A DNA stretch of 64,000 nucleotides. Source: Eledone cirrhosa (Eukaryota). This document shows, one piece after another, positions 1 to 64,000 of the stretch. The notes beneath the pieces are model-generated. The model had not been told where the DNA came from. It did no database searches and saw only the letters and a list, made by a program, of their open reading frames with translations. Positions within the stretch are counted from its first letter, which is position 1. Every line of letters begins with the position of its first letter. The stretch is taken from contig CAXHJY010000949.1 in the NCBI GenBank assembly GCA_964016885.1, positions 62,001 through 126,000 of the forward strand. The letters run 5' to 3'. A program made the translations under genes and the position numbers.

Positions 1-3000
1 TAATAATAATCGAAGAAATAATAATAATAATCGAATAAATGTGACACCACGTATACCATCTGAGTCTACCTCGACTGTTGTGGAAAATACTATCGATAAT
101 GATAATCAAAAGTATAAACAATTGAAAATGTCCCTCAACGAAATCTTCCAGAGAGAAATTAACTCATGTATAAATATCTCTCTGGCTGAACGTGTTAAAA
201 CGACAATGGTGAATAAAAAAAACAAATAATGAAATACTACGTGTTATTGACGAAATAGGGGATGAATATTTACGACGGATAAAAACCCCAACATTTTGGC
301 AAATCAACGCCTGTTTATATGCCTTAGCAATGACAGTGAAGCATTATCTTGGTGATTGCAGAGATATTAACAAGAACAAAACACCACCAAAAATACCATC
401 ATATATAACTAAAATAGAAAAAAAGAGTGCTGACCTACGAAAAACCATAGGACATGTGACAATGCTCCTTACATGCAAACAAACACAAAAAAACCTCACT
501 CCTCACCAACAAAGAGTGAAAAATAAAATAGAGACGATGTTTGGTAACAGTAGAACCAGAACTCTCCAATATAAGCTGATCACCCTCAAACAAGAATTGA
601 GAGCGAGAAAGGTTGATACCTGAAGAAGGTAGATGAGAGAAAAATGCTTAATAAAAGATTCAGACGAAACCAAACATCAGTCTATAGAGATATGAAGAAC
701 AAAATAATAAGTGTCACTGAGGCCCCATCCCAGAAAGACATAAGATTCCTTTTGGATTAAAATATGGGGTGAAAAGAAGAATTTCAACCAAGATGCGGTG
801 TGGCTAAGAGAAATCCGAAAGAACTATTGCTCCTACAATACAACAAAAACATACGAAATAAGTGAGGGTACCCTTGAGACTGTGATAGGAAAACTCCAAG
901 ATAAGAAAACACCAGGAAGAGACATGATTGTCGGCTACTGGTACAAAAAACTAATATTCTATCGGAGGTATCTTACTGACCTCTACCAACAAATTCTTAA
1001 GGGAGATACACTTATACCAGAATGGTTGACATTAGCACAAACGTTACTGAACAAAGACACCCACTTGGCAAAAAACTACCGACCCATTGCATGCCAGAAC
1101 CTAATGTATAAGATGTATACAGCCTGCCTCAACCTATTCCTCCAAGATCACTGTGAAAATAACAACATCATCACAGATGAACAAGCAGCTGGAAAGAAAA
1201 GGGTTTGGGGATGTGCTGAACAACTCCTAATCAACAAAACTGCGATGTCGGAGGTGCGACAACTTGGGAGGAATATGACTACAGTCTGGCTGGACTACAA
1301 GAAAGCTTTCGATTCTGTTCCCCACTCTTGGATGATAGAGGCCCTCCAACTTGCTAAAGTCCCAGACATTATTGTCAGAGCCATAGAGAGGCTGTCTTCT
1401 TCTTGGGCTACTATCCTAAGGTTAAAGACAGAGAGGGAGGACTCTATTTTCACTGATAAAATAAAATATTGCAGAGGTATATTTCAGGGGGACAGTCTCT
1501 CTGTGATATTGTTCATCTTGTCATTAAACCCCTTGTCCTTTCTGCTCAAGAAATGTGAGGGATACATCATTGGCTCACAGGAGGACAGAAATACGAACCT
1601 AACCCATAACTTCTTTGTGGACGATCTGAAACTCTATGCCAAGAACATGGATGGGATGAAGAAAAATCTTGACCTGGTTACAACGTTCTCAAAGGATATA
1701 GGAATGGAGTTTGGCCAAGATAAATGCTCATACATGACTGTAAAGCGGGGAAAAACAACAACCCAATCTAGCAACATTGTCATCAATGGTCTAACTGTTT
1801 CACCGATATCTGATGAGGACTGCTACAGATACCTGGGGATAGATGAGAACATATCCTATAATGGTATCTGTAATAAAGAACACGTAACTAGGGAATACTA
1901 CAACCGATTAAGAAAGATCTGGTCATCGGAACTCTCTGTGCAAAACAAAACAGTGGCTCACAATGTGTTTGCTGTGCCTGTCCTAACACCAACGTTTGGA
2001 ATACTCAATTGGATGATAGACGAAATCCGAGCAGTTGATGTTGGAACTCGAAAAATACTGAACAACACCGGAAACTTCCACATCAACAGTGACATAGACC
2101 GCCTTTACTTGAAACGTAGGCAGGGAGGCAGAGGCCTAACATCAGTCCAGACAACATTTGAATGTCGCATCATATCTCTCCGACAACATCTATGAACCTC
2201 GAAGCGTAGGACCCCGCTTCTCGAGCAAGTCTATCTGCATGAAACAGATAAGATCATGAGAGTTGGGAAGGAACTCCTTGAGAGATATTCCCTGTGTGAT
2301 AATCAAAAACTCACACCCAGGGATGTCGCTCAGCAGTATCGCAGTGAATCCATGGATGAAAAACTGCATGCCTATCAGCAAAAAATCATGCATGGATATG
2401 TTGCCAGGAAGCTCCAGAGTGAGAGTAATATAGATAAGGAAAGTAGTCTATCTTGGACCAACAACCACTATATTGGCTCCCACTTTGAAGGATACGCTTT
2501 TGCAATCCAAGAACAGGAGATTAGCACGAAATATCTGATTCACAAAAGAGATAGGGATGCAGGCAAAACACCTAGATGTGATAACAAGTGCAGACTCTGC
2601 AGAACTAACATCGAGGATATCACCCATGTCATCAGCAGCTGCCCAAAGATGTCATCGCGGTACTATCTACCTATGAGGCATGATGTAGTGGCCAAAACAC
2701 TGTACAATGCAGTTCGTAAAAAAGATAGCCCCGATAATAAACACATTAAAAGCTACAACAATGTGGAAGACATCCATGTACATAATATGAAAGAGTACTG
2801 GTGGGAATGTTCCAGTAAGAACCCCAATAAAATGCAGGCATAACAGACCAGATATTATGATATGGGACAGGGAGAAGAAAACATGCACAGTAGTGGAAAT
2901 TAGCTGCCCAGCAGATGCCAATATAATATCAAAGATTAGTGAAAAGGAGAATATTTATGCAGAACTGATGAGAAATCTGCAGATACTCCACCCTGATTAC

Positions 3001-3420
3001 ACCTTCAGATTTATGCCTGTGATTATTGGGGCACTGGGATATGTTAGTAACTGCATCAATACAAATCTTGAGAAGCTAGGCTTCACAGGAACAGAAAGAA
3101 CACAACTAGTTAGAAAATTACAAGTACAATCAATTAATGGAACAGTAAAAATATGTAAAACATTCCAAAAATTTTGCATCTAATAACTGCATATACACAT
3201 GTACAGATACAAAGCATATACACATGCACACATATAATTCAAAACATCCACATCCACATACAATAACATCCATATCTACACATGCATGCATGCAGACATA
3301 CATACATATCTACCTAGTTGATGTTGTGTAAATTCCAATGAGAGAGTCTTGTGTCTATGTTAGAAACCGACTCTCTCTCTATTGGTAAAACTTTGTGAAA
3401 TTATAAAGCCAGAAGAACAT
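1..3420 (+). mobile_element. R4/Dong-type non-LTR retrotransposon (RT + CCHC knuckle + restriction-like endonuclease), decayed, 5' end outside window
   Basis: ORF pieces 41-229, 330-623, 798-2195, 2256-2843 and 2857-3183 are collinear but broken by stops/frameshifts. RT motifs NYRPIAC, WLDYKKAFDSVPH, GIFQGDSLS, FFVDDLKLY, YRYLG; GGRGL; CRLC..EDITHVISSC knuckle; RHD and (RPD)..IWD..VVEISCP..K..Y RLE motifs. About 240 bp 3' UTR ends at a (CATA)n tract. Confidence 0.92.
798..2195 (+). pseudogene. Reverse transcriptase domain of the R4/Dong-type element
   Basis: 465-aa ORF with all non-LTR RT motifs; ends at a premature stop before the knuckle and endonuclease parts. Confidence 0.9.
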
Positions 3421-14114: not shown

Positions 14115-14242
14115 AAAGTTATATTTAAATTGTTGGGTTAACAACGAGTAAATATTTATAACTGATATAAAAGCACTCAACAAGTATTTGGAGTATATTT
14201 ATGATATTAAATAAATGGAAACTATATTTATAAAACCATATT

Positions 14243-14308
14243 TATTTCGTTATATATATTTCAGGGATATCATATTAACAATATGTTATGCCTTCTTCAG
14301 ACAAAATA
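14243..14308 (-). ncRNA. Type I hammerhead ribozyme (minimal, palindromic stem III)
   Basis: tattttgt-CTGAAGA-agg...cct-GAAA-tatata-TA-acgaaata; 8-bp stem I with one G-U pair. Confidence 0.78.
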
Positions 14309-14442
14309 CAATATAAACAGTCTTATAAATAAATAGATACGACATACCTTTCAATCACCTTGCATTTGCCAAATCAACCTCCCAAATGCAAGGTGATTGA
14401 AAGGTATGTCGTATCTATTTATTTATAAGACTGTTTATATTG

Positions 14443-14508
14443 TATTTTGTCTGAAGACGGCATAACATATTGTTAATATGATATCCCTGAAATATATATA
14501 ACGAAATA
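14443..14508 (+). ncRNA. Type I hammerhead ribozyme, mirror copy
   Basis: As 14243-14308, but the first stem II base is c (cgg...cct). Confidence 0.7.
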
Positions 14509-14545
14509 AATATGGTTTTATAAATATAGTTTCCATTTATTTAAT

Positions 14546-14581
<36 letters not shown>

Positions 14582-32643: not shown

Positions 32644-33978
<1,335 letters not shown>

Positions 33979-33989
33979 TAATATAGATG

Positions 33990-34040
33990 AGATTCTACAG
34001 GACTAGAACTGTTTCATTCATTAGAAATCATCAGGAATCT
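33990..34040 (-). ncRNA. Type I hammerhead ribozyme
   Basis: agattc-CTGATGA-tttc taat gaat-GAAA-cag ttctagtc ctg-TA-gaatct; canonical core, GUA site. Confidence 0.82.
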
Positions 34041-34544
34041 GGGTATCAAAAAATAAATATGGTATTTATAGGTCTCTACAAGTGGTAGGAGAGGGTGGGG
34101 AGTGGGATGGGTGCAGGTCATTGGTTGATAGAAAAGGGAATTCATTAAAAGCTAATTCTACAAAGCTATAGTTTATTTTTATTTTTATTTATATTTATTT
34201 ATGTTTTTAGAGTAACAAAGGCAGACAGAATTCTATAAACAGGTTCCGGATGGCATACCATTCCTTGTCAATAAGTTTCTCTTAAGCTAACAGATGTCTA
34301 TAAAATCAGTGGGGCGTCAGTCATGGTCGATAGAATTAAGAGAAGGGAGATTCTTTAAAAGCTAAAGTCATTAAGGTTCTACTAAGTGACAAAGGTCTAG
34401 AGAATTCTGCAGACAGATTCAAAATACTGAGTGCATATCTTACTATTATCTTCGAACTTCTCTTAAACTAATCAACTATATGCCAAAAATCAACAGACAC
34501 ATTCACAAAAAAACAAAAAAACAAAAAAACAAAAAAACACATAC

Positions 34545-36610
<2,066 letters not shown>

Positions 36611-36697
36611 GTTTTAATGTAGAAGAGATTCTACAGGACTAGAACTGTTCATTCATTAGAAATCATCAGGAATCCTCCGATTCAACCCGGAATAACG
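36611..36697 (-). mobile_element. Hammerhead-family remnant (GAAA reduced to GAA) joined to an inverted 22-bp element terminus
   Basis: 36627-36674 matches 33990-34040; ctccgattcaacccggaataac is the reverse complement of 63448-63469. Confidence 0.72.
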
Positions 36698-39257: not shown

Positions 39258-42200
39258 TCATCATCATCATCACCATTTTACGTCCTTTCTTCCATGCTAG
39301 CATGGGTTAGACGGGTTGTCCTGTTGTGGGCAGTGTCTGGTCGACTGACTATGCCTTCTCCATACAGAAACTGATTTGGCTTGATTTCTACAGTTGGATG
39401 ACCTTCCTAACACCAACCTCATTTACAGTGAGTGCTGGGTGCTTTTTCGTTGCGCCTACACATCCACTTTACAGTGTGGGCTGGGTTATTTTTTGCTGTG
39501 GCACCTCCACGACCACCTTGCGGTGAGGGCATATTGTCTATATGCTTCGTCGGGTACTCTGTATTACTGCATGACGCCAGAGGTCACGGTCGTGTGTCAT
39601 CGCCTTTGAGAGGTGTAATTGGGTAAGGTCGGCTTTTATCACCTCATCCCAGGTCATCTTGGGTCTCCCCACTCCGCGGTTTCCATTGACTTCTAGTGCT
39701 CTGCACCTTTTTATGCAGCTGTCATCCTTCGTACGCATCACATGTCCATACCAATGCAACCGCCTCTCCTGCACACAGCATTTGATTCCTCTTATGCTCA
39801 GTCTCTCTCTCAATTCGTTTATGCTTTGTCGTTCGCATATATTACTATTACACATCCATCGGAGCATGCAGGCTTCGTTTCTCTCTAATCTACGTAAATC
39901 TTCCACCTTCAGCGCCTAGGTCTCACTACCATGCAACATCGCTGTTCGGATACACGCATCATACAGTCTGCCTTTCATTTTGAGGGAGCAGCCTTTTGCA
40001 GCTAGCAGTGGTAGTAGTTCCCTAAACTTCTTCCATCCCGTTCTTACCCTAGTTATTGTACTTTCTGAACACCCATCTCCGCTGCTAATTCGGTCACCTA
40101 GGTAGCAGAAGCTGTCTACTGTTTCTACAGCGCCCTCCCAGAGATTGGTGGTACTTGTTTCCTGTGGCTGTTTGCTGCTTCCTGTCCCAGCACAGCTGCT
40201 ACATGTGAAGCCTTCATTCTTAATTAAGCTTCCTGAGATCCCGCTACATCTCTTGTGTACCCATTGTTTGCATTTGGGACAGAGAATGGAGTTCCTACCT
40301 ACACCTTTCCTACATACTGGGCAAGGCCATTTCCCTGAGGGGATCTGGGTTCTGTTTTCTTGTGTACTTACAAGAACCTTAGTCTTTGTCATGTTGACTT
40401 TGAGACCCTTTCTTTCTAGTGCTTGCTTCCAAGTTTGGAATTTCTTCTCTAGTTCTACCATAGATTCAGCTATAAGTGCGAGGTCATCAGCATACAGAAG
40501 TTCCCATGGGCATCCGGTCTTAAACTCCTCCGTTATTGCCTGCAGGACTATGATGAACAGGAGGGGGCTAAGAACAGAGCCCTGGTGGACCCCAACCTGT
40601 ATGCTAAATTCATCGCTATACTCATTGCTAATCCTAACTTTGCTGACTGCTCCCCTATACATGGCTTGTACCGCTTTCACAAGCCATTCATCTACTCCTA
40701 GTTTTCTAAGAGCCCACCAGATTACAGCACGTGGAACTCTGTCAAAGGCTTTCTCAAGGTCGACAAATGCCAGGTAGAGTGGCTTACTTTTAGCTAGGTA
40801 CTTTTCCTGTAACTGCCTGACAAGGAAGAGGGCATCAGTGGTGCCACTTCCTGGTACAAACCCAAATTGCATCTCGTCTAGTTTCACCCGGTCCCTAATC
40901 AACTGTGCTATAACTCTTTCTGTTACTTTAATGACCTGGTCCATCAGCTTTATACCTCTATAGTTTCCTCTATCTAGTGCATCACCTTTACCTTTGTAGC
41001 AGTTGACAATGATGCTACTGCACCAATCTTTTGGTATGACACCTTCTAGTATTACCTGGTTAACAATACGTGTGGTTATAGTGTGACCTGCATCTCGGCA
41101 GCTATACCCGATGGACCGGTTGCCTTCCCCATCTACATATCTTTGATTGCCTTACTTACTACACTGCTGCTGACTTGTACTGCTGGCCCCTCTATAGGGT
41201 CTACTTGGAGTAGGGTCTCTTCTTCCCATGCATTCTCCTCATTTAGTAATCTATCATAATGACTCTTCCATGCATCTTTCTTCTCAGCACTTGTGAGGGC
41301 AAGCTCACCTTTATCATTCCGGATACACTTCTCTCCAATGACATCACAATTCTCTCTGACATACTGCCTCGCAATCCTGAACACCTCCTGTTTCTGGTCC
41401 TCACGTTGCAAAACATGCTTGAATTTTCTATCCTCTGCTTCCCTCCTACCTAAGTATACTTGTCGCCTAGCTTCCCTCTTCGTCACTATGTAATGTACCC
41501 TGCTCCCCCCATTCTTCCATTCTTTCCATGCCTGTCTCTTGGCCTTAACTGCTTCATCTACCTTACTGTTCCACCACCAAGTCATTCTCCTCCGTCGCAT
41601 CTAGTAAGTTATTTTTTAGGAACTCCCAGTTCTCTTCTAGATTGAATGTTTCTATCTGTTCTTCTTTACTGTCGTAGGCGTTGAATATAATATCTTTAAA
41701 TCTGTTACTGGTTGAGGGGTCTTTTAGCTTCCAGATCTTTCTTCTCCAGGTTGGCCTCTGTTTCCAGGTTCATCTAGTTCTGACTGTGAGGCCGCTGACA
41801 ACTAAGCTATGTTGGGATTTACATTCCTCACTAGGGAAGACTTTTGTGTTTATGACCGTCCATCTATCACGTCCTCTGATGAGGATAAAATCTATCTGAC
41901 TAGAGTGCTGCCCTGATCTATAGGTGATCAGGTGGCTGTCAGGTTTTTTGAAGTTTGTGTTACATATCGACATGTCATTGGCATTGCAGAATTCTAGAAG
42001 TCTGAATCCTTCCTCATTTCTTGTGCCAACCCCATGGCCTCCATGGACTCTATTGAAGCCGTCGCAGTCTTTACCTACATGTCCGTTAAAATCTCCTGCG
42101 ATGATTAGGAAGTCATTGTCATTATTAGAGCAGTAGTATGCATTAGGGACTCGTAAAAACCTATCCTTAAGTTCGTCTGGCAACCCCAATTGGGGTGCAT

Positions 42201-42436
42201 AAGCTGATATTATTGTGGTAATTGTTTTATTCAGGACTAGTCTGAGTTTAATGATTCTTGCATTTACCCTGTACACTGAGATTACTTTAGCTACCCACTT
42301 GTCAGCTAGTAGTATACCTACACCACCCATCCCATCGTCATTTCCCACCCATAAAAATTTGTAGCACCGACTTTTTCCTACAAGGACTCTAGCAGACTCT
42401 CCTCTCCTTCTAGTCTCTTGCACACAGCATACATCA
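39258..42436 (-). mobile_element. RTE-type LINE (APE endonuclease + RT), decayed, 5' end lost in microsatellite
   Basis: APE motifs [36 protein letters not shown] motifs FVDLEKAFDRV, GVHQGSVLSPLLF, LLYADDL, FCYLG. Stops/frameshifts between ORFs 41770-, 41133-, 39916- and 39538-; 3' UTR with (GAT)n tail. Confidence 0.93.
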
Positions 42437-42438
42437 AT

Positions 42439-42496
<58 letters not shown>

Positions 42497-42550
42497 TATA
42501 TATATATACACATATATATATATATATATATAGATATATATATATACACA

Positions 42551-42582
<32 letters not shown>

Positions 42583-42583
42583 C

Positions 42584-42646
<63 letters not shown>

Positions 42647-42653
<7 letters not shown>

Positions 42654-43003
42654 GTGAGGTTTTTTTTACAAAATGAAAAATAACCGAGGTGTCCTACACG
42701 AGTGAAAGTATAAAGAAAAAGAGATGAAATCGAAAATGCAACTGGAGTCATATTTTTTAAAAAAATATACATATTTATTTGGTTCCTTTACCGGTTTCGC
42801 AGTTCTTCTGCTTTACAAAAGGTGAGTTGAGATGGAGGGTCTGTGGTTTTTCTCACATCAGATGTGAGAAAAACCACAGGCCCTCCATCTCAACTCACCT
42901 TTTGAAAAGCAGATGAACTGCGAAACCGGTAAAGGAACCAAACAAATATATATATTTAAAAAAAAATAAGACTCCAATTGCATTTTCGATTTCATCTCTT
43001 TTT

Positions 43004-44860: not shown

Positions 44861-45888
44861 GCTTGTTTTGAATGTTTATGTGGGTGTACATAGCTTAGCA
44901 ATTCGGCAAAAAACAAGTGCGTGAAATTAAGTTACCTAACTTGAACAAAAGAAGTACTTTTGTTGATATAACTGACTAATTCAAGGCATTGCTCTAGCAT
45001 GGCCATATGACTGAAACTAGTAAAAATATAAAAGTGTATGTATTTGATTGGAAAGTGGGTTTTTGATGTTGAATAAATTTAACCAATGTTATTTATTCGC
45101 CTTCTTCAATTACTAAACTTAACTAACGAAGGTTATGGTTCCTACTTTAACTAAACCAAAATATATTAGAAGCTAACTAACTGTAATGAATAGCTTTTGT
45201 GGTTTTGCAACCATTGTTATTTTACACAGACACACACACACACACACACACATATATACATATATATATACATACACACCACAATATATACATAGACATA
45301 CACATACACCCCCACATGTACATATATACATACACATATATACACCCACACTCATACATAATTACATACACATATATACACACACACACACTCATACATA
45401 CTTCAATGCATACATATTGCATACATATATACATACATACTTACGTACATACACACACACACACACACATATATATATGTATATATACCCACATGTACAT
45501 ACATACATGTATGTGTGTGAGAGTATGTATGTATATATTTACATGATATATGATATATACATGCATCATCATCATTTAACAACCATTTTCCCAGCTAGTA
45601 AAGGTGATTTGATTCATGAAACAGTTCTTGTCCTGTAGAAGTGATTTCTATATGTAATAAATATGGTTAGTCTCTACTAATATGCTAAGTACCTTATCTA
45701 ACTTTGATTTCTTTCCAATACCCTTTGGAAATCCATCCTTAATTATACATACAGTACATACAAATTTATATATATATACAAATATATATATATATCATCA
45801 TCATCATCATCATAGCTTTGACTCATGGTAATATGAAAACATCATCATCATCATCACCATAATCATTATTGTTGTTGTTATTAATATT

Positions 45889-48530: not shown

Positions 48531-49016
48531 CAAAAACAAAATTACCAATATAAAGGAAATATTTTTAAAAAAAGCTACTATTTTTTGGAAATTGTTCACA
48601 CAGCAATATCTCTTTTGTTAAATATGTAACATAAAATTAATGGATTAACAATTATTTTTAACATCTCTTTCTAATTAATTGATTAAAGACACTGCATGCA
48701 AAAAAAATGTCAATACAGAATTGATTGTTGAAATAACAGCATTTATCCAATATTGGACATAGATTAATAGTGTGTGTGTATATTTGGTTTGTACTCACAC
48801 ACACATACAAACTATATATATATATATATATATATATAGTGGGAAATGAAGGAAAAATTATGATATATATATGTAACTCTTTATTTCATATTTAGTTTTA
48901 TATTGGAAAATGTTTTACCAGTATTTGATAAACAACTACCTACCTGGGAAAAGGTGATATTAAATGAAGATGAACTATAAAATTGTGTACACACACACAT
49001 ATTTCATTATAGAAAC

Positions 49017-49066
49017 GACTTCTACGGGATTAGAACTGTTTCATTGATAAGAAATCATCAGGACTT
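49017..49066 (-). ncRNA. Degenerate hammerhead of the 33990/63528 family
   Basis: CTGATGA...GAAAcagttctaatcccgTA; core intact, stems eroded. Confidence 0.55.
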
Positions 49067-49486
49067 TCCTGGTGTATAGACACCTATACTCTTCTAATAT
49101 ATTGAATACCTTTTTTAATTGTGGTCACCTCACAATATACATAGATACAACAGACAATCAACTTGGTGTATTTTGTGTTGATTATTAATAAATTTATTAA
49201 TTCTGTTAATGATAATGGCATCCTTAATTTCCAAATTTCTGATGTTCCATTCTGTGGCTTTTGTAGTGACTATGTCATAGGTGTGACATATTTCTAGAAC
49301 AAGCAGTTGTATAGATGTCTTCTTTAATCTGGTGTTGCCATTTAAAGACCTTACCTCTGAGTTAGGAGCTGTTAAATTGATAACGTGTGAGGTACAACAC
49401 ATGAAACCTCAAGCATACATTCACATTGTTGATAGAAGAGTTGACTAGTGTACACTTATCTCTGTGTAGACATTGATAGCCCTTAA

Positions 49487-52428: not shown

Positions 52429-52949
52429 TAGTACTATATATTGCTAATATAATGTAAGTAATATTTCATTTCCAATTGATTATATGATGTATACATTTTT
52501 TATGCAAGATATTAAAATTGTTGTGCCTATAACAATATCTATGTGAGTGCCCTCTGCTTGGTTTTTTTAGTGCTAAATTTGCATCGAGGCGTTATTGATC
52601 AACAAGTCAATATTTCTATGTATCGATATTTACATTCCACACACACGCATAAATATATATTACTCGATATCTACCCCTAAATATAATGACCACCACCACC
52701 ACTCCCACCCCAACCAGTATGAAATCTATAAATATCAACAACTTACTATGTCACCCAACATTCCTGATAATTTCATACAAATGAAACCATTTTATTATTG
52801 TAGAAACCATTTCTATATTAAATATTGATATATGTATTGAGATATATATATATATATATATTTTCATTATTATTAAGGGTTATCACTGATGACCCTGTCA
52901 TAAACAGGCAAAACTCCAGAGTAACAAGACTCACAATTTTGCCTTAATA

Positions 52950-63321: not shown

Positions 63322-63447
63322 CATTATATACTATATTTATAAACACTGCAAAAAAAAAAAAGTGTTATTGATAGAAATATGAAGTAGGATATTTATGCCA
63401 CACCCTGCCTACCATACCCTGGGGTATATATATATATATATATATAA

Positions 63448-63641
63448 GTTATTCCGGGTTGAATCGGAGATAACCACCGTAAGTAAGGTACTCAATACAT
63501 AGCAGAGTATAACAGTTTTAATATAGAAGAGCTTCTACAGGACTAGAACTGTTTCATTCGTGAGAAATCATCAGGAAGCTCTAATGATTTCTCACGAATG
63601 AAACAGTTCTAGTCCTGTAGAAGCTCTTCTATATTAAAACT
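63448..63641. mobile_element. Tail + 58-bp-arm inverted repeat with hammerhead
   Basis: Arms 63514-63571 and 63584-63641; between (TA)n tracts. Confidence 0.82.
63528..63582 (-). ncRNA. Type I hammerhead ribozyme
   Basis: agagcttc-CTGATGA-tttc tcac gaat-GAAA-cag ttctagtc ctg-TA-gaagctct; 8-bp stem I. Confidence 0.85.
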
Positions 63642-63679
63642 TATATATATATATATATAATATACCTACATATAACTAC

Positions 63680-64000
63680 ATTAAACTCAGACTAGTCCTG
63701 AATAAAACAATTACTACAATAATATCAGCTTACGCACCCCAATCGGGGCTGCCAGACGAACTTAAGGATAGGTTTTACGAGTCCCTAATGCACACTACTG
63801 CTCTAACAGACGACAATGACTTCCTAATCATCGCAGGAGATTTTAACGGACACGTAGGTAAACACTGCGACGGCTTCAATAGAGTACATGGAGGCCATGG
63901 GGTTGGCACAAGGAATGAGGAATGATTTAGACTTCTAGAATTCTGCGACGCCAATGAAATGTCGATATGTAACACAAACTTTAAAAAACCCGACAACCAC
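63680..64000 (+). mobile_element. RTE LINE APE-domain fragment, runs off window
   Basis: Reverse-complement match to ~41935-42250; [16 protein letters not shown]; contains a stop. Confidence 0.88.

What the first reader, a model, noticed from the sequence alone, without database searches (positions are those of the whole stretch)
63448..63641. Canonical hammerhead family with covarying stem I across four loci
Seen: minus-strand hammerheads at 63528-63582, 33990-34040, 36627-36674 and 49017-49066. Stem I is agagcttc/gaagctct at 63.5 kb but agattc/gaatct at 34 kb, so both strands changed together. Loop II varies (tcac/taat) while the core is kept. At 63.5 kb the fold-back occurs right at the ribozyme 5' edge, and the mirror copy has a broken core (CTAATGA). 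Inference: structure is under selection, and this is the best candidate for an active ribozyme here.
Basis: partly seen in the sequence, partly recalled or inferred. Interest (0 to 1): 0.72.

Follow-up and report, generated by a model that had tools for sequence, protein, structure and literature searches.

The report
Penelope retroelement end with hammerhead ribozyme
This is a hairpin-shaped stub of a known kind of animal jumping gene whose ribozyme-like motif occurs over 25,000 times in this genome; the stubs mostly stop at the motif's first letter with one extra G, which likely marks the capped start of the element's RNA, and this particular copy is predicted not to be an active ribozyme.

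Summary
The motif is real but belongs to a known system: a type I hammerhead in the pseudo-LTR of a Hydra-clade Penelope-like retroelement. There are 25,240 exact core matches genome-wide. The same unit sits directly before a 758-codon RT/GIY-YIG frame in 8 of 12 long loci. The 63.5-kb locus is a tailed pLTR stub plus an untailed inverted copy, inserted in (TA)n. Only 2 of the 4 named copies are intact. The stem I covariation is one change between two subfamilies, and two of the eight pairs quoted are made by the fold-back junction. The copy has lost its TATA region and would fold into a 58-bp-plus hairpin, so it is a poor candidate for activity. Of more interest: 73 of 74 truncated copies end within 8 nt of the core, about 30 nt below a TATA box. 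A non-native G precedes stem I (2,068 against 468 A/T), and 15 of 15 head-to-head pairs have exactly one tail. This points to a capped RNA start at stem I and uncleaved templates (inferred; no RNA data). The scan noted this system and an RNA-start idea before, on other DNA.

The parts
63448..63580 (-). Tailed arm: pLTR stub of a Hydra-clade Penelope-like element, from the inferred RNA start (63580) to the tail end
   Evidence: 92-95% like the unit before the long frame in 8 of 12 loci; same subfamily runs into the frame's N-terminus in L104
63530..63580 (-). Type I hammerhead: stem I 63575-63580/63530-63535, core C3 at 63574, U.U at 10.1/11.1, 3-bp stem II with loop TCAC, 4-bp stem III with 8-nt loop holding palindromic CTAG, predicted cut after GUA at 63536
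   Evidence: same layout as Hydra-clade rows in Craig 2021 File S2
63448..63513 (-). 66-nt tail present on this arm only; in full elements it continues into the reading frame
63581..63581 (-). Non-native G before stem I (native base is C); on the + strand it is also C3 of the mirror core; likely a copied RNA cap
63581..63641 (+). Untailed mirror arm (inverted 5'-truncated copy), no stem I 5' strand, core CTAATGA with a G-to-A change at 63583 that most relatives lack
   Evidence: G in 14,157 of 14,641 contig depth at 63583 in run X1
63425..63446 (.). (TA)n target, left side
   Evidence: sequence
63642..63659 (.). (TA)n target, right side
   Evidence: sequence
33978..35213 (-). Untailed copy of the agattc subfamily with native upstream region; intact hammerhead 33990-34040; TATAAATA at 34063-34070
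   Evidence: aligns to the full element L091 over 1,256 columns
36610..36696 (-). Untailed agattc-subfamily arm with one A missing from GAAA, joined at 36674/36675 to an inverted 22-nt tail tip
49002..49135 (.). Older fold-back copy: minus-strand arm without stem I; plus-strand arm gactttc + deleted core + decayed tail
45616..45696 (+). Decayed partial copy
52761..52832 (+). Decayed copy with an upstream TATA-like box

Best explanation
The locus is a short insertion of a Hydra-clade Penelope-like retroelement, one tailed and one untailed copy of its hammerhead-bearing end joined head to head in a TA repeat, and it was likely made by copying an uncleaved RNA that is predicted to start, capped, at the first base of stem I. 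Shown: the unit precedes an RT/GIY-YIG frame elsewhere in the genome; copies end at two fixed 3' sites; 5' ends pile up at stem I; an extra G stands there; junctions differ from copy to copy. Inferred: a TATA promoter in the pLTR starts the RNA at stem I. The element's enzyme nicks (TA)n and primes two cDNAs, one per target strand, at the two internal sites. Both run through the uncut ribozyme to the RNA 5' end, often adding a C opposite the cap, and are joined by short homology. The ribozyme matters, if at all, in the RNA of full-length elements, probably weakly and as a dimer through the CTAG loop. This stub is likely inert.
For: Linkage: 8 of 12 long loci carry the unit just before a 758-811-codon frame, seven of these frames 96-99% alike; L104 links the window's own subfamily. 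Hydra marks RWR, DKT, YRDD, CxCx5C, CxxC and CxH in 7 of 7 frames (defined in PMC8557442 section 11). Atlas neighbours at 0.96-0.99 carry HTH_animal, GIY-YIG and RVT_1. One tail per pair in 15 of 15 pairs, two of them duplicates. 73 of 74 truncated copies end within 8 nt of C3. TATA-to-C3 distance is 36 nt in 19 of 24 native copies. G before stem I: 2,068 against 468 A/T, and 754 against 433 in a second subfamily; none of 41 sampled G-cases has the native upstream flank. Copies starting at the cut site on (TA)n: 14, against 10 at a control site. Dimeric stem III -12.8 against -1.4 kcal/mol for the monomer. In vitro precedent for two RT start sites, both strands extended and uncleaved template (PMC11167929); extra G at full-length L1 5' junctions (PMC11702581).
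Against: No RNA data: start site, cap, transcription and cleavage are untested. Pfam gave only sub-threshold GIY-YIG hits and no RT hit; PDB and NCBIfam gave nothing, so the RT call rests on motifs and atlas neighbours. Many extra G's coincide with a G of the mirror arm's CAG, and an untemplated C need not come from a cap. Many copies stop 1-5 nt short of +1. A few junctions (L120, L157) look like fold-back through stem I itself. For 10 of the 74 truncated copies the flank was unclassified and may be an unknown native flank. No intact frame was found for the window's subfamily: one linked fragment with a stop. Two primed cDNAs cannot be told from one cDNA that folds back and ends at the inner site. 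D. virilis Penelope has a TATA-less internal promoter (PMC2377424).
Confidence: 0.72

Rival explanations
1. Same element, but the pile-up at stem I is a structural effect: the enzyme stalls at stem I, or the cDNA folds back by its own stem I complementarity and primes the mirror arm; the RNA start lies elsewhere.
For: L120 and L157 join exactly through stem I, and L189/L191 carry three bases matching such self-priming. Self-priming was proposed for Penelope palindromes (PMC3846280). An earlier scan note on another genome read a similar fixed start as an RT stop (unchecked).
Against: In the ggctttc/gaagcc subfamily self-priming predicts T before stem I, yet G outnumbers A and T together (754 against 433), and none of 21 sampled G-cases is native. 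51 of 58 mirror arms contain the ribozyme body rather than starting past stem I. A stall is expected on entering a helix, not after leaving it (inference). The TATA spacing fits +1.
Confidence: 0.18
2. An autonomous ribozyme family or retrozyme under selection at these loci, with the 63.5-kb copy active.
For: Intact core and 13 pairs at 63.5 kb; compensated stem I changes between subfamilies; animal retrozymes derive from pLTRs (10.64898/2026.07.22.740005).
Against: No tandem array here; promoter region lost; hairpin of -114.9 kcal/mol against -7.3 for the ribozyme helices; 2 of 4 copies broken; even the RNA from +1 to the tail end is predicted to misfold; the unit is physically the start of a coding element.
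Confidence: 0.06
3. The fold-back is an assembly or long-read chimera.
For: Perfect palindromes are a known read artefact (recalled).
Against: Strict one-tail asymmetry; varied junctions with small insertions; contigs of public runs X1 and X6 span related junctions; a private base difference at 63583.
Confidence: 0.02

Closest known systems
Hydra clade of C-terminal EN+ Penelope-like elements (Craig et al. 2021, PMC8557442; section 11, passages and supplement Files S1/S2 read)
   Same: Single RT + C-terminal GIY-YIG frame with DKT, CxCx5C, CxxC and CxH; (TA)n targets; inverted 5'-truncated copy; one-sided tail; hammerhead layout ctgatgat...tgaa with acag/ctgt-a as in several listed members.
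   Different: RWR for RWK. 8-nt loop III against 1-3 nt in the listed Hydra rows. 66-nt tail against 30-40. Long microsatellite-rich spacer after the frame. The motif string has 0 hits in that supplement and the listed Hydra-1_oBim hammerhead differs, so this family is not listed there.
[quoted passage not shown]
   Same: Type I motif in pLTRs, mostly solo copies, palindromic loop III suggesting dimers, close pairs on opposite strands.
   Different: They report a conserved G10.1-C11.1 pair and long stem II; here U and U, a 3-bp stem II and a stem III that can close as a monomer.
Poseidon_Ac in vitro mechanism (Frangieh et al. 2024, PMC11167929; parts 1-2 of 4 read)
   Same: Two internal RT start sites bounding the tail, both strands nicked and extended, AT-rich target, uncleaved RNA as template.
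   Different: Other clade. In the parts read it does not map the RNA 5' end or explain the inverted junction. Here the first ATG lies about 130 nt past the cut site, not within stem II.
Non-LTR retrozymes (bioRxiv 10.64898/2026.07.22.740005; part 1 of 5 read)
   Same: Type I hammerhead derived from pLTRs.
   Different: Defined by tandem units; these copies are solo or head to head.

Membership tests
Type I hammerhead ribozyme | CUGAnGA and GAAA core, UH site, three helices | tested here: met
   63.5 and 34.0 kb pass, 36.6 and 49.0 kb fail
Type I hammerhead ribozyme (canonical) | G10.1-C11.1 pair closing stem II | tested here: not met
   U and U in 207 of 234 motifs with TTTC/GAAT; also so in published Hydra rows
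Type I hammerhead ribozyme | Match to an Rfam hammerhead model at gathering score | tested here: not met
   0 matches in the window
Type I hammerhead ribozyme | Self-cleavage at the UH site | not testable with these tools
   needs an in vitro assay
EN+ Penelope-like element | Hammerhead-bearing pLTR before a single RT + GIY-YIG frame | tested here: met
   8 of 12 long loci; L104 for the window's subfamily; Pfam weak, atlas supportive
EN+ Penelope-like element | Inverted 5'-truncated copy and one-sided tail | tested here: met
   15 of 15 pairs; window locus
Hydra clade | DKT in place of DKG; CxCx5C linker in place of Cx2-5CxxC; CxxC and CxH near the C-terminus | tested here: met
   7 of 7 frames
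Hydra clade | RWK motif | tested here: inconclusive
   RWR in 7 of 7: conservative variant
Hydra clade | CCHH motif absent from the endonuclease | tested here: inconclusive
   two cysteines 8 apart lie between IVY and YIG in 7 of 7; the one next to YIG is absent from the L046 fragment; not aligned to references
Hydra clade | Insertion into (TA)n | tested here: met
   flanks
Hydra clade | Placement in an RT phylogeny | not tested
   no reference proteins were available as tool sequences
Non-LTR retrozyme | Tandem non-coding units each with a hammerhead | tested here: not met
   solo or head-to-head copies in the window and in the 100-hit sample

The most novel reading that the evidence does not exclude
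In this Penelope family the mRNA begins, capped, at the very first base of the hammerhead, so cleavage would cut off a 45-nt capped piece and act as an off-switch rather than a processing step. The classic inverted pLTR is built from two cDNAs, primed from the two target strands at the two tail boundaries, which both run to the cap, copy it and fuse head to head. Thousands of genomic junctions record this.
Probability: 0.45. Interest if true: 0.65.

Novelty: new member of a known kind. Interest (0 to 1): 0.38.

Why it matters
As a ribozyme find it is ordinary: hammerheads are universal in Hydra-clade and other canonical Penelope-like elements. What could matter is the junction record. How these elements make inverted ends, and what their hammerhead does, are stated open questions (PMC8557442). 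A young family with intact frames, more than 25,000 motif copies and a single-base prediction for the RNA start gives direct tests: map the cap, and run capped against uncapped templates with purified enzyme.

Tried and rejected
Rfam scan: nothing. No Penelope-type frame was seen by eye among the 107 window frames. First linkage pattern had a wrong gap and gave 0; corrected. PDB and NCBIfam searches of the long frame gave nothing significant. Run search: no RNA holder listed, no evidence either way on expression. The contigs laid cannot show starts, strand or level. Ribozyme-cut RNA as usual template was rejected: 14 matches (12 loci, some local duplications) against 10 at a control site; only direct (TA)n joins of one subfamily were tested. 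The 8-bp stem I was rejected as partly junction-made. Lunse et al. 2016 could not be read; seen only as cited in PMC6765202 (passages). Searches for a printed report of a TATA start or cap G at PLE hammerheads showed none in listings and passages, but the library lacks most subscription papers and supplement figures were not visible. That G5A inactivates hammerheads is recalled; the search gave no useful paper. No R-scape, no tree and no target-site-duplication call (the TA flanks hide it).

Full report
Observation. All four motifs are present on the minus strand. At 63.5 kb the layout is agcttc, CTGATGA, T, TTC-TCAC-GAA, T, GAA, ACAG-TTCTAGTC-CTGT, A, gaagct, with C3 at 63574 and the predicted cut after 63536. 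A descriptor needing all three helices accepts the 63.5-kb and 34.0-kb copies and one unrelated motif at 14.3 kb, and finds nothing in 100 of 100 shuffles. The 36.6-kb copy lacks an A of GAAA. The 49-kb copy has at most two stem I pairs and broken pairs in stems II and III. Rfam finds nothing. The fold-back has 58 perfect pairs around a 12-nt centre, and both ends lie in (TA)n.

Family size. The genome is 3.0 Gb. The 136-nt unit gave 634 candidates; 27 of the 40 scored had an adjacent inverted partial match. The core-plus-stem-II pattern has 25,240 exact matches and the reversed control 0.

What carries it. Copies with longer upstream sequence led to loci with endonuclease-like fragments, and these to a young family with long open frames. 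I fetched 12 loci chosen for frames of 750 codons or more. In 8 of 12 the hammerhead-plus-tail unit lies directly before the frame; the others had only an inverted copy or none in view. Seven frames are 96-99% alike and carry RWR, DKT, YRDD, CxCx5C, IVY...YIG, CxxC and CxH. Craig et al. define the Hydra clade of Penelope-like elements by RWK, DKT, CxCx5C, CxxC/CxH, (TA)n targets and hammerheads (PMC8557442 section 11), and their listed hammerheads share the ctgatgat...tgaa layout. Pfam support is weak and RT was not detected; atlas neighbours carry GIY-YIG, RVT_1 and HTH_animal. The frame-linked copies seen are of the agattc subfamily, as at 34 and 36.6 kb. The window's agcttc subfamily runs into the same N-terminus at one locus, L104, with one stop in 90 codons.

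Covariation. In 39 native-context rows, 94.9% of cells pair, two stem I pairs change on both sides, stems II and III show no such change, and one stem I pair is broken in 9 rows. The covariation score beats 500 of 500 shuffles, but the count of pairs does not (251 of 500 reach it), and the rows are related. Loop II is the most variable part. This fits selection on source elements over a few events, not on these copies.

3' ends. In the first 100 pattern hits on contig C1, 52 end without tail, 39 with tail, 2 run into the frame and 7 are unclear. All 15 head-to-head pairs have one tailed and one untailed arm; two pairs are duplicates of each other. This is the published PLE tail signature, which in vitro marks two internal RT start sites, with both target strands extended.

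5' ends. Of the 100 hits, 24 have a native TATA-containing flank by pattern and 2 more match native sequence for 25 nt or more. Of the other 74, 73 keep 8 nt or less of native sequence before C3 and 1 keeps 12. Of these 74, 58 abut a mirror arm, 8 abut (TA)n and 8 have other flanks; with the two native-like ones the script's 'other' class was 10. The pattern needs an intact core, so arms cut inside it are not counted. The first base of stem I lies 30 nt below the start of TATAAATA in 19 of 24 native copies, in three subfamilies but mostly one. The base before stem I is natively C. Genome-wide, non-native G outnumbers A and T together, 2,068 to 468 in the agattc subfamily and 754 to 433 in the ggctttc subfamily; native C was not counted. 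None of 21 and 20 sampled G-cases has the native flank, and G also appears where the flank is plain (TA)n. In the second subfamily fold-back through stem I would give T, not G. Full-length L1 insertions carry an extra G from the cap (PMC11702581, passage). Copies beginning at the ribozyme cut site are no commoner than at a control site, 14 against 10. I infer a capped start at stem I and mostly uncleaved templates. At the window locus the extra base is 63581.

Activity of this copy. Over both arms the RNA is predicted to form a -114.9 kcal/mol hairpin, with all ribozyme pairs at probability 0.0. From +1 to the tail end it also misfolds. Only the 53-nt fragment forms stems I and III, and stem II stays weak (0.05-0.07). 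Two copies of stem III pair at -12.8 against -1.4 kcal/mol alone, in line with the dimer model. The TATA region is replaced by the mirror arm, whose core change is private: most related junctions in a public run have G there. Contigs in that call span related junctions, against an assembly artefact.

Earlier notes. This scan has many notes on the same system in this genome (349 fit the look-up), including an RNA-start reading for another family and a rule for the two ends. I noted the start idea, before reading them. A note from another genome reads a similar fixed start as an RT stop; the G data here favour a true RNA end.

Verdict. A real motif in a known system, and a family not listed in the defining paper's supplement. 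Membership in Penelope-like elements is about 95% likely, and in the Hydra clade about 85%. The start-and-cap mechanism is about 70% likely and the two-cDNA detail less. Papers seen: PMC11167929 and PMC4209133 parts 1-2 of 4; the 2026 bioRxiv preprint part 1 of 5; PMC8557442 section 11, passages and part of the supplement (figures not visible); PMC3846280, PMC2377424, PMC11702581 and PMC6765202 passages only.

Noticed in passing
window 14150-14560: A second, unrelated hammerhead-like family (CTGAAGA core, long stem II) as a head-to-head pair at 14300 (-) and 14451 (+) around a palindromic centre; the minus copy passes the descriptor.
   Followed up: partly
L044:1850-2170, L046:1775-2270, L054:1800-1870: Head-to-head insertions whose two arms come from different templates: a non-coding pLTR arm joined to an endonuclease-coding piece or to another subfamily's hammerhead.
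   Followed up: no
L032, L036, L039, L041, L044, L048, L052, L055: A sublineage with agctcc/gaagct, a C.A mismatch in stem I, has spread, so a perfect stem I is not needed for copying.
   Followed up: partly
L091:5070-6501, L094:5085-5950: Full elements carry a TA/TG microsatellite-rich spacer of about 1 kb or more after the frame, unusual in length for a family otherwise 96-99% alike.
   Followed up: no
window 63448-63513: The tail is predicted to fold into two or three small hairpins; earlier scan notes link such hairpins to RT start sites.
   Followed up: no
L014, L017, L019, L233: (GA)n runs directly before stem I at (TA)n junctions, possibly enzyme stutter at the RNA 5' end.
   Followed up: no
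window 63760-64000 and L103: Start of a LINE-type element (AP endonuclease-like frame, label from recall) beside the locus; similar fragments at 41770-42693 and 39538-41600.
   Followed up: no
window 744-3183: Frames resembling a LINE with RT and a restriction-enzyme-like endonuclease (label from recall), broken by stops.
   Followed up: no
L059:1770-3228: A different Penelope-type RT (DKG motif) is joined directly to the non-coding upstream region of this family.
   Followed up: no
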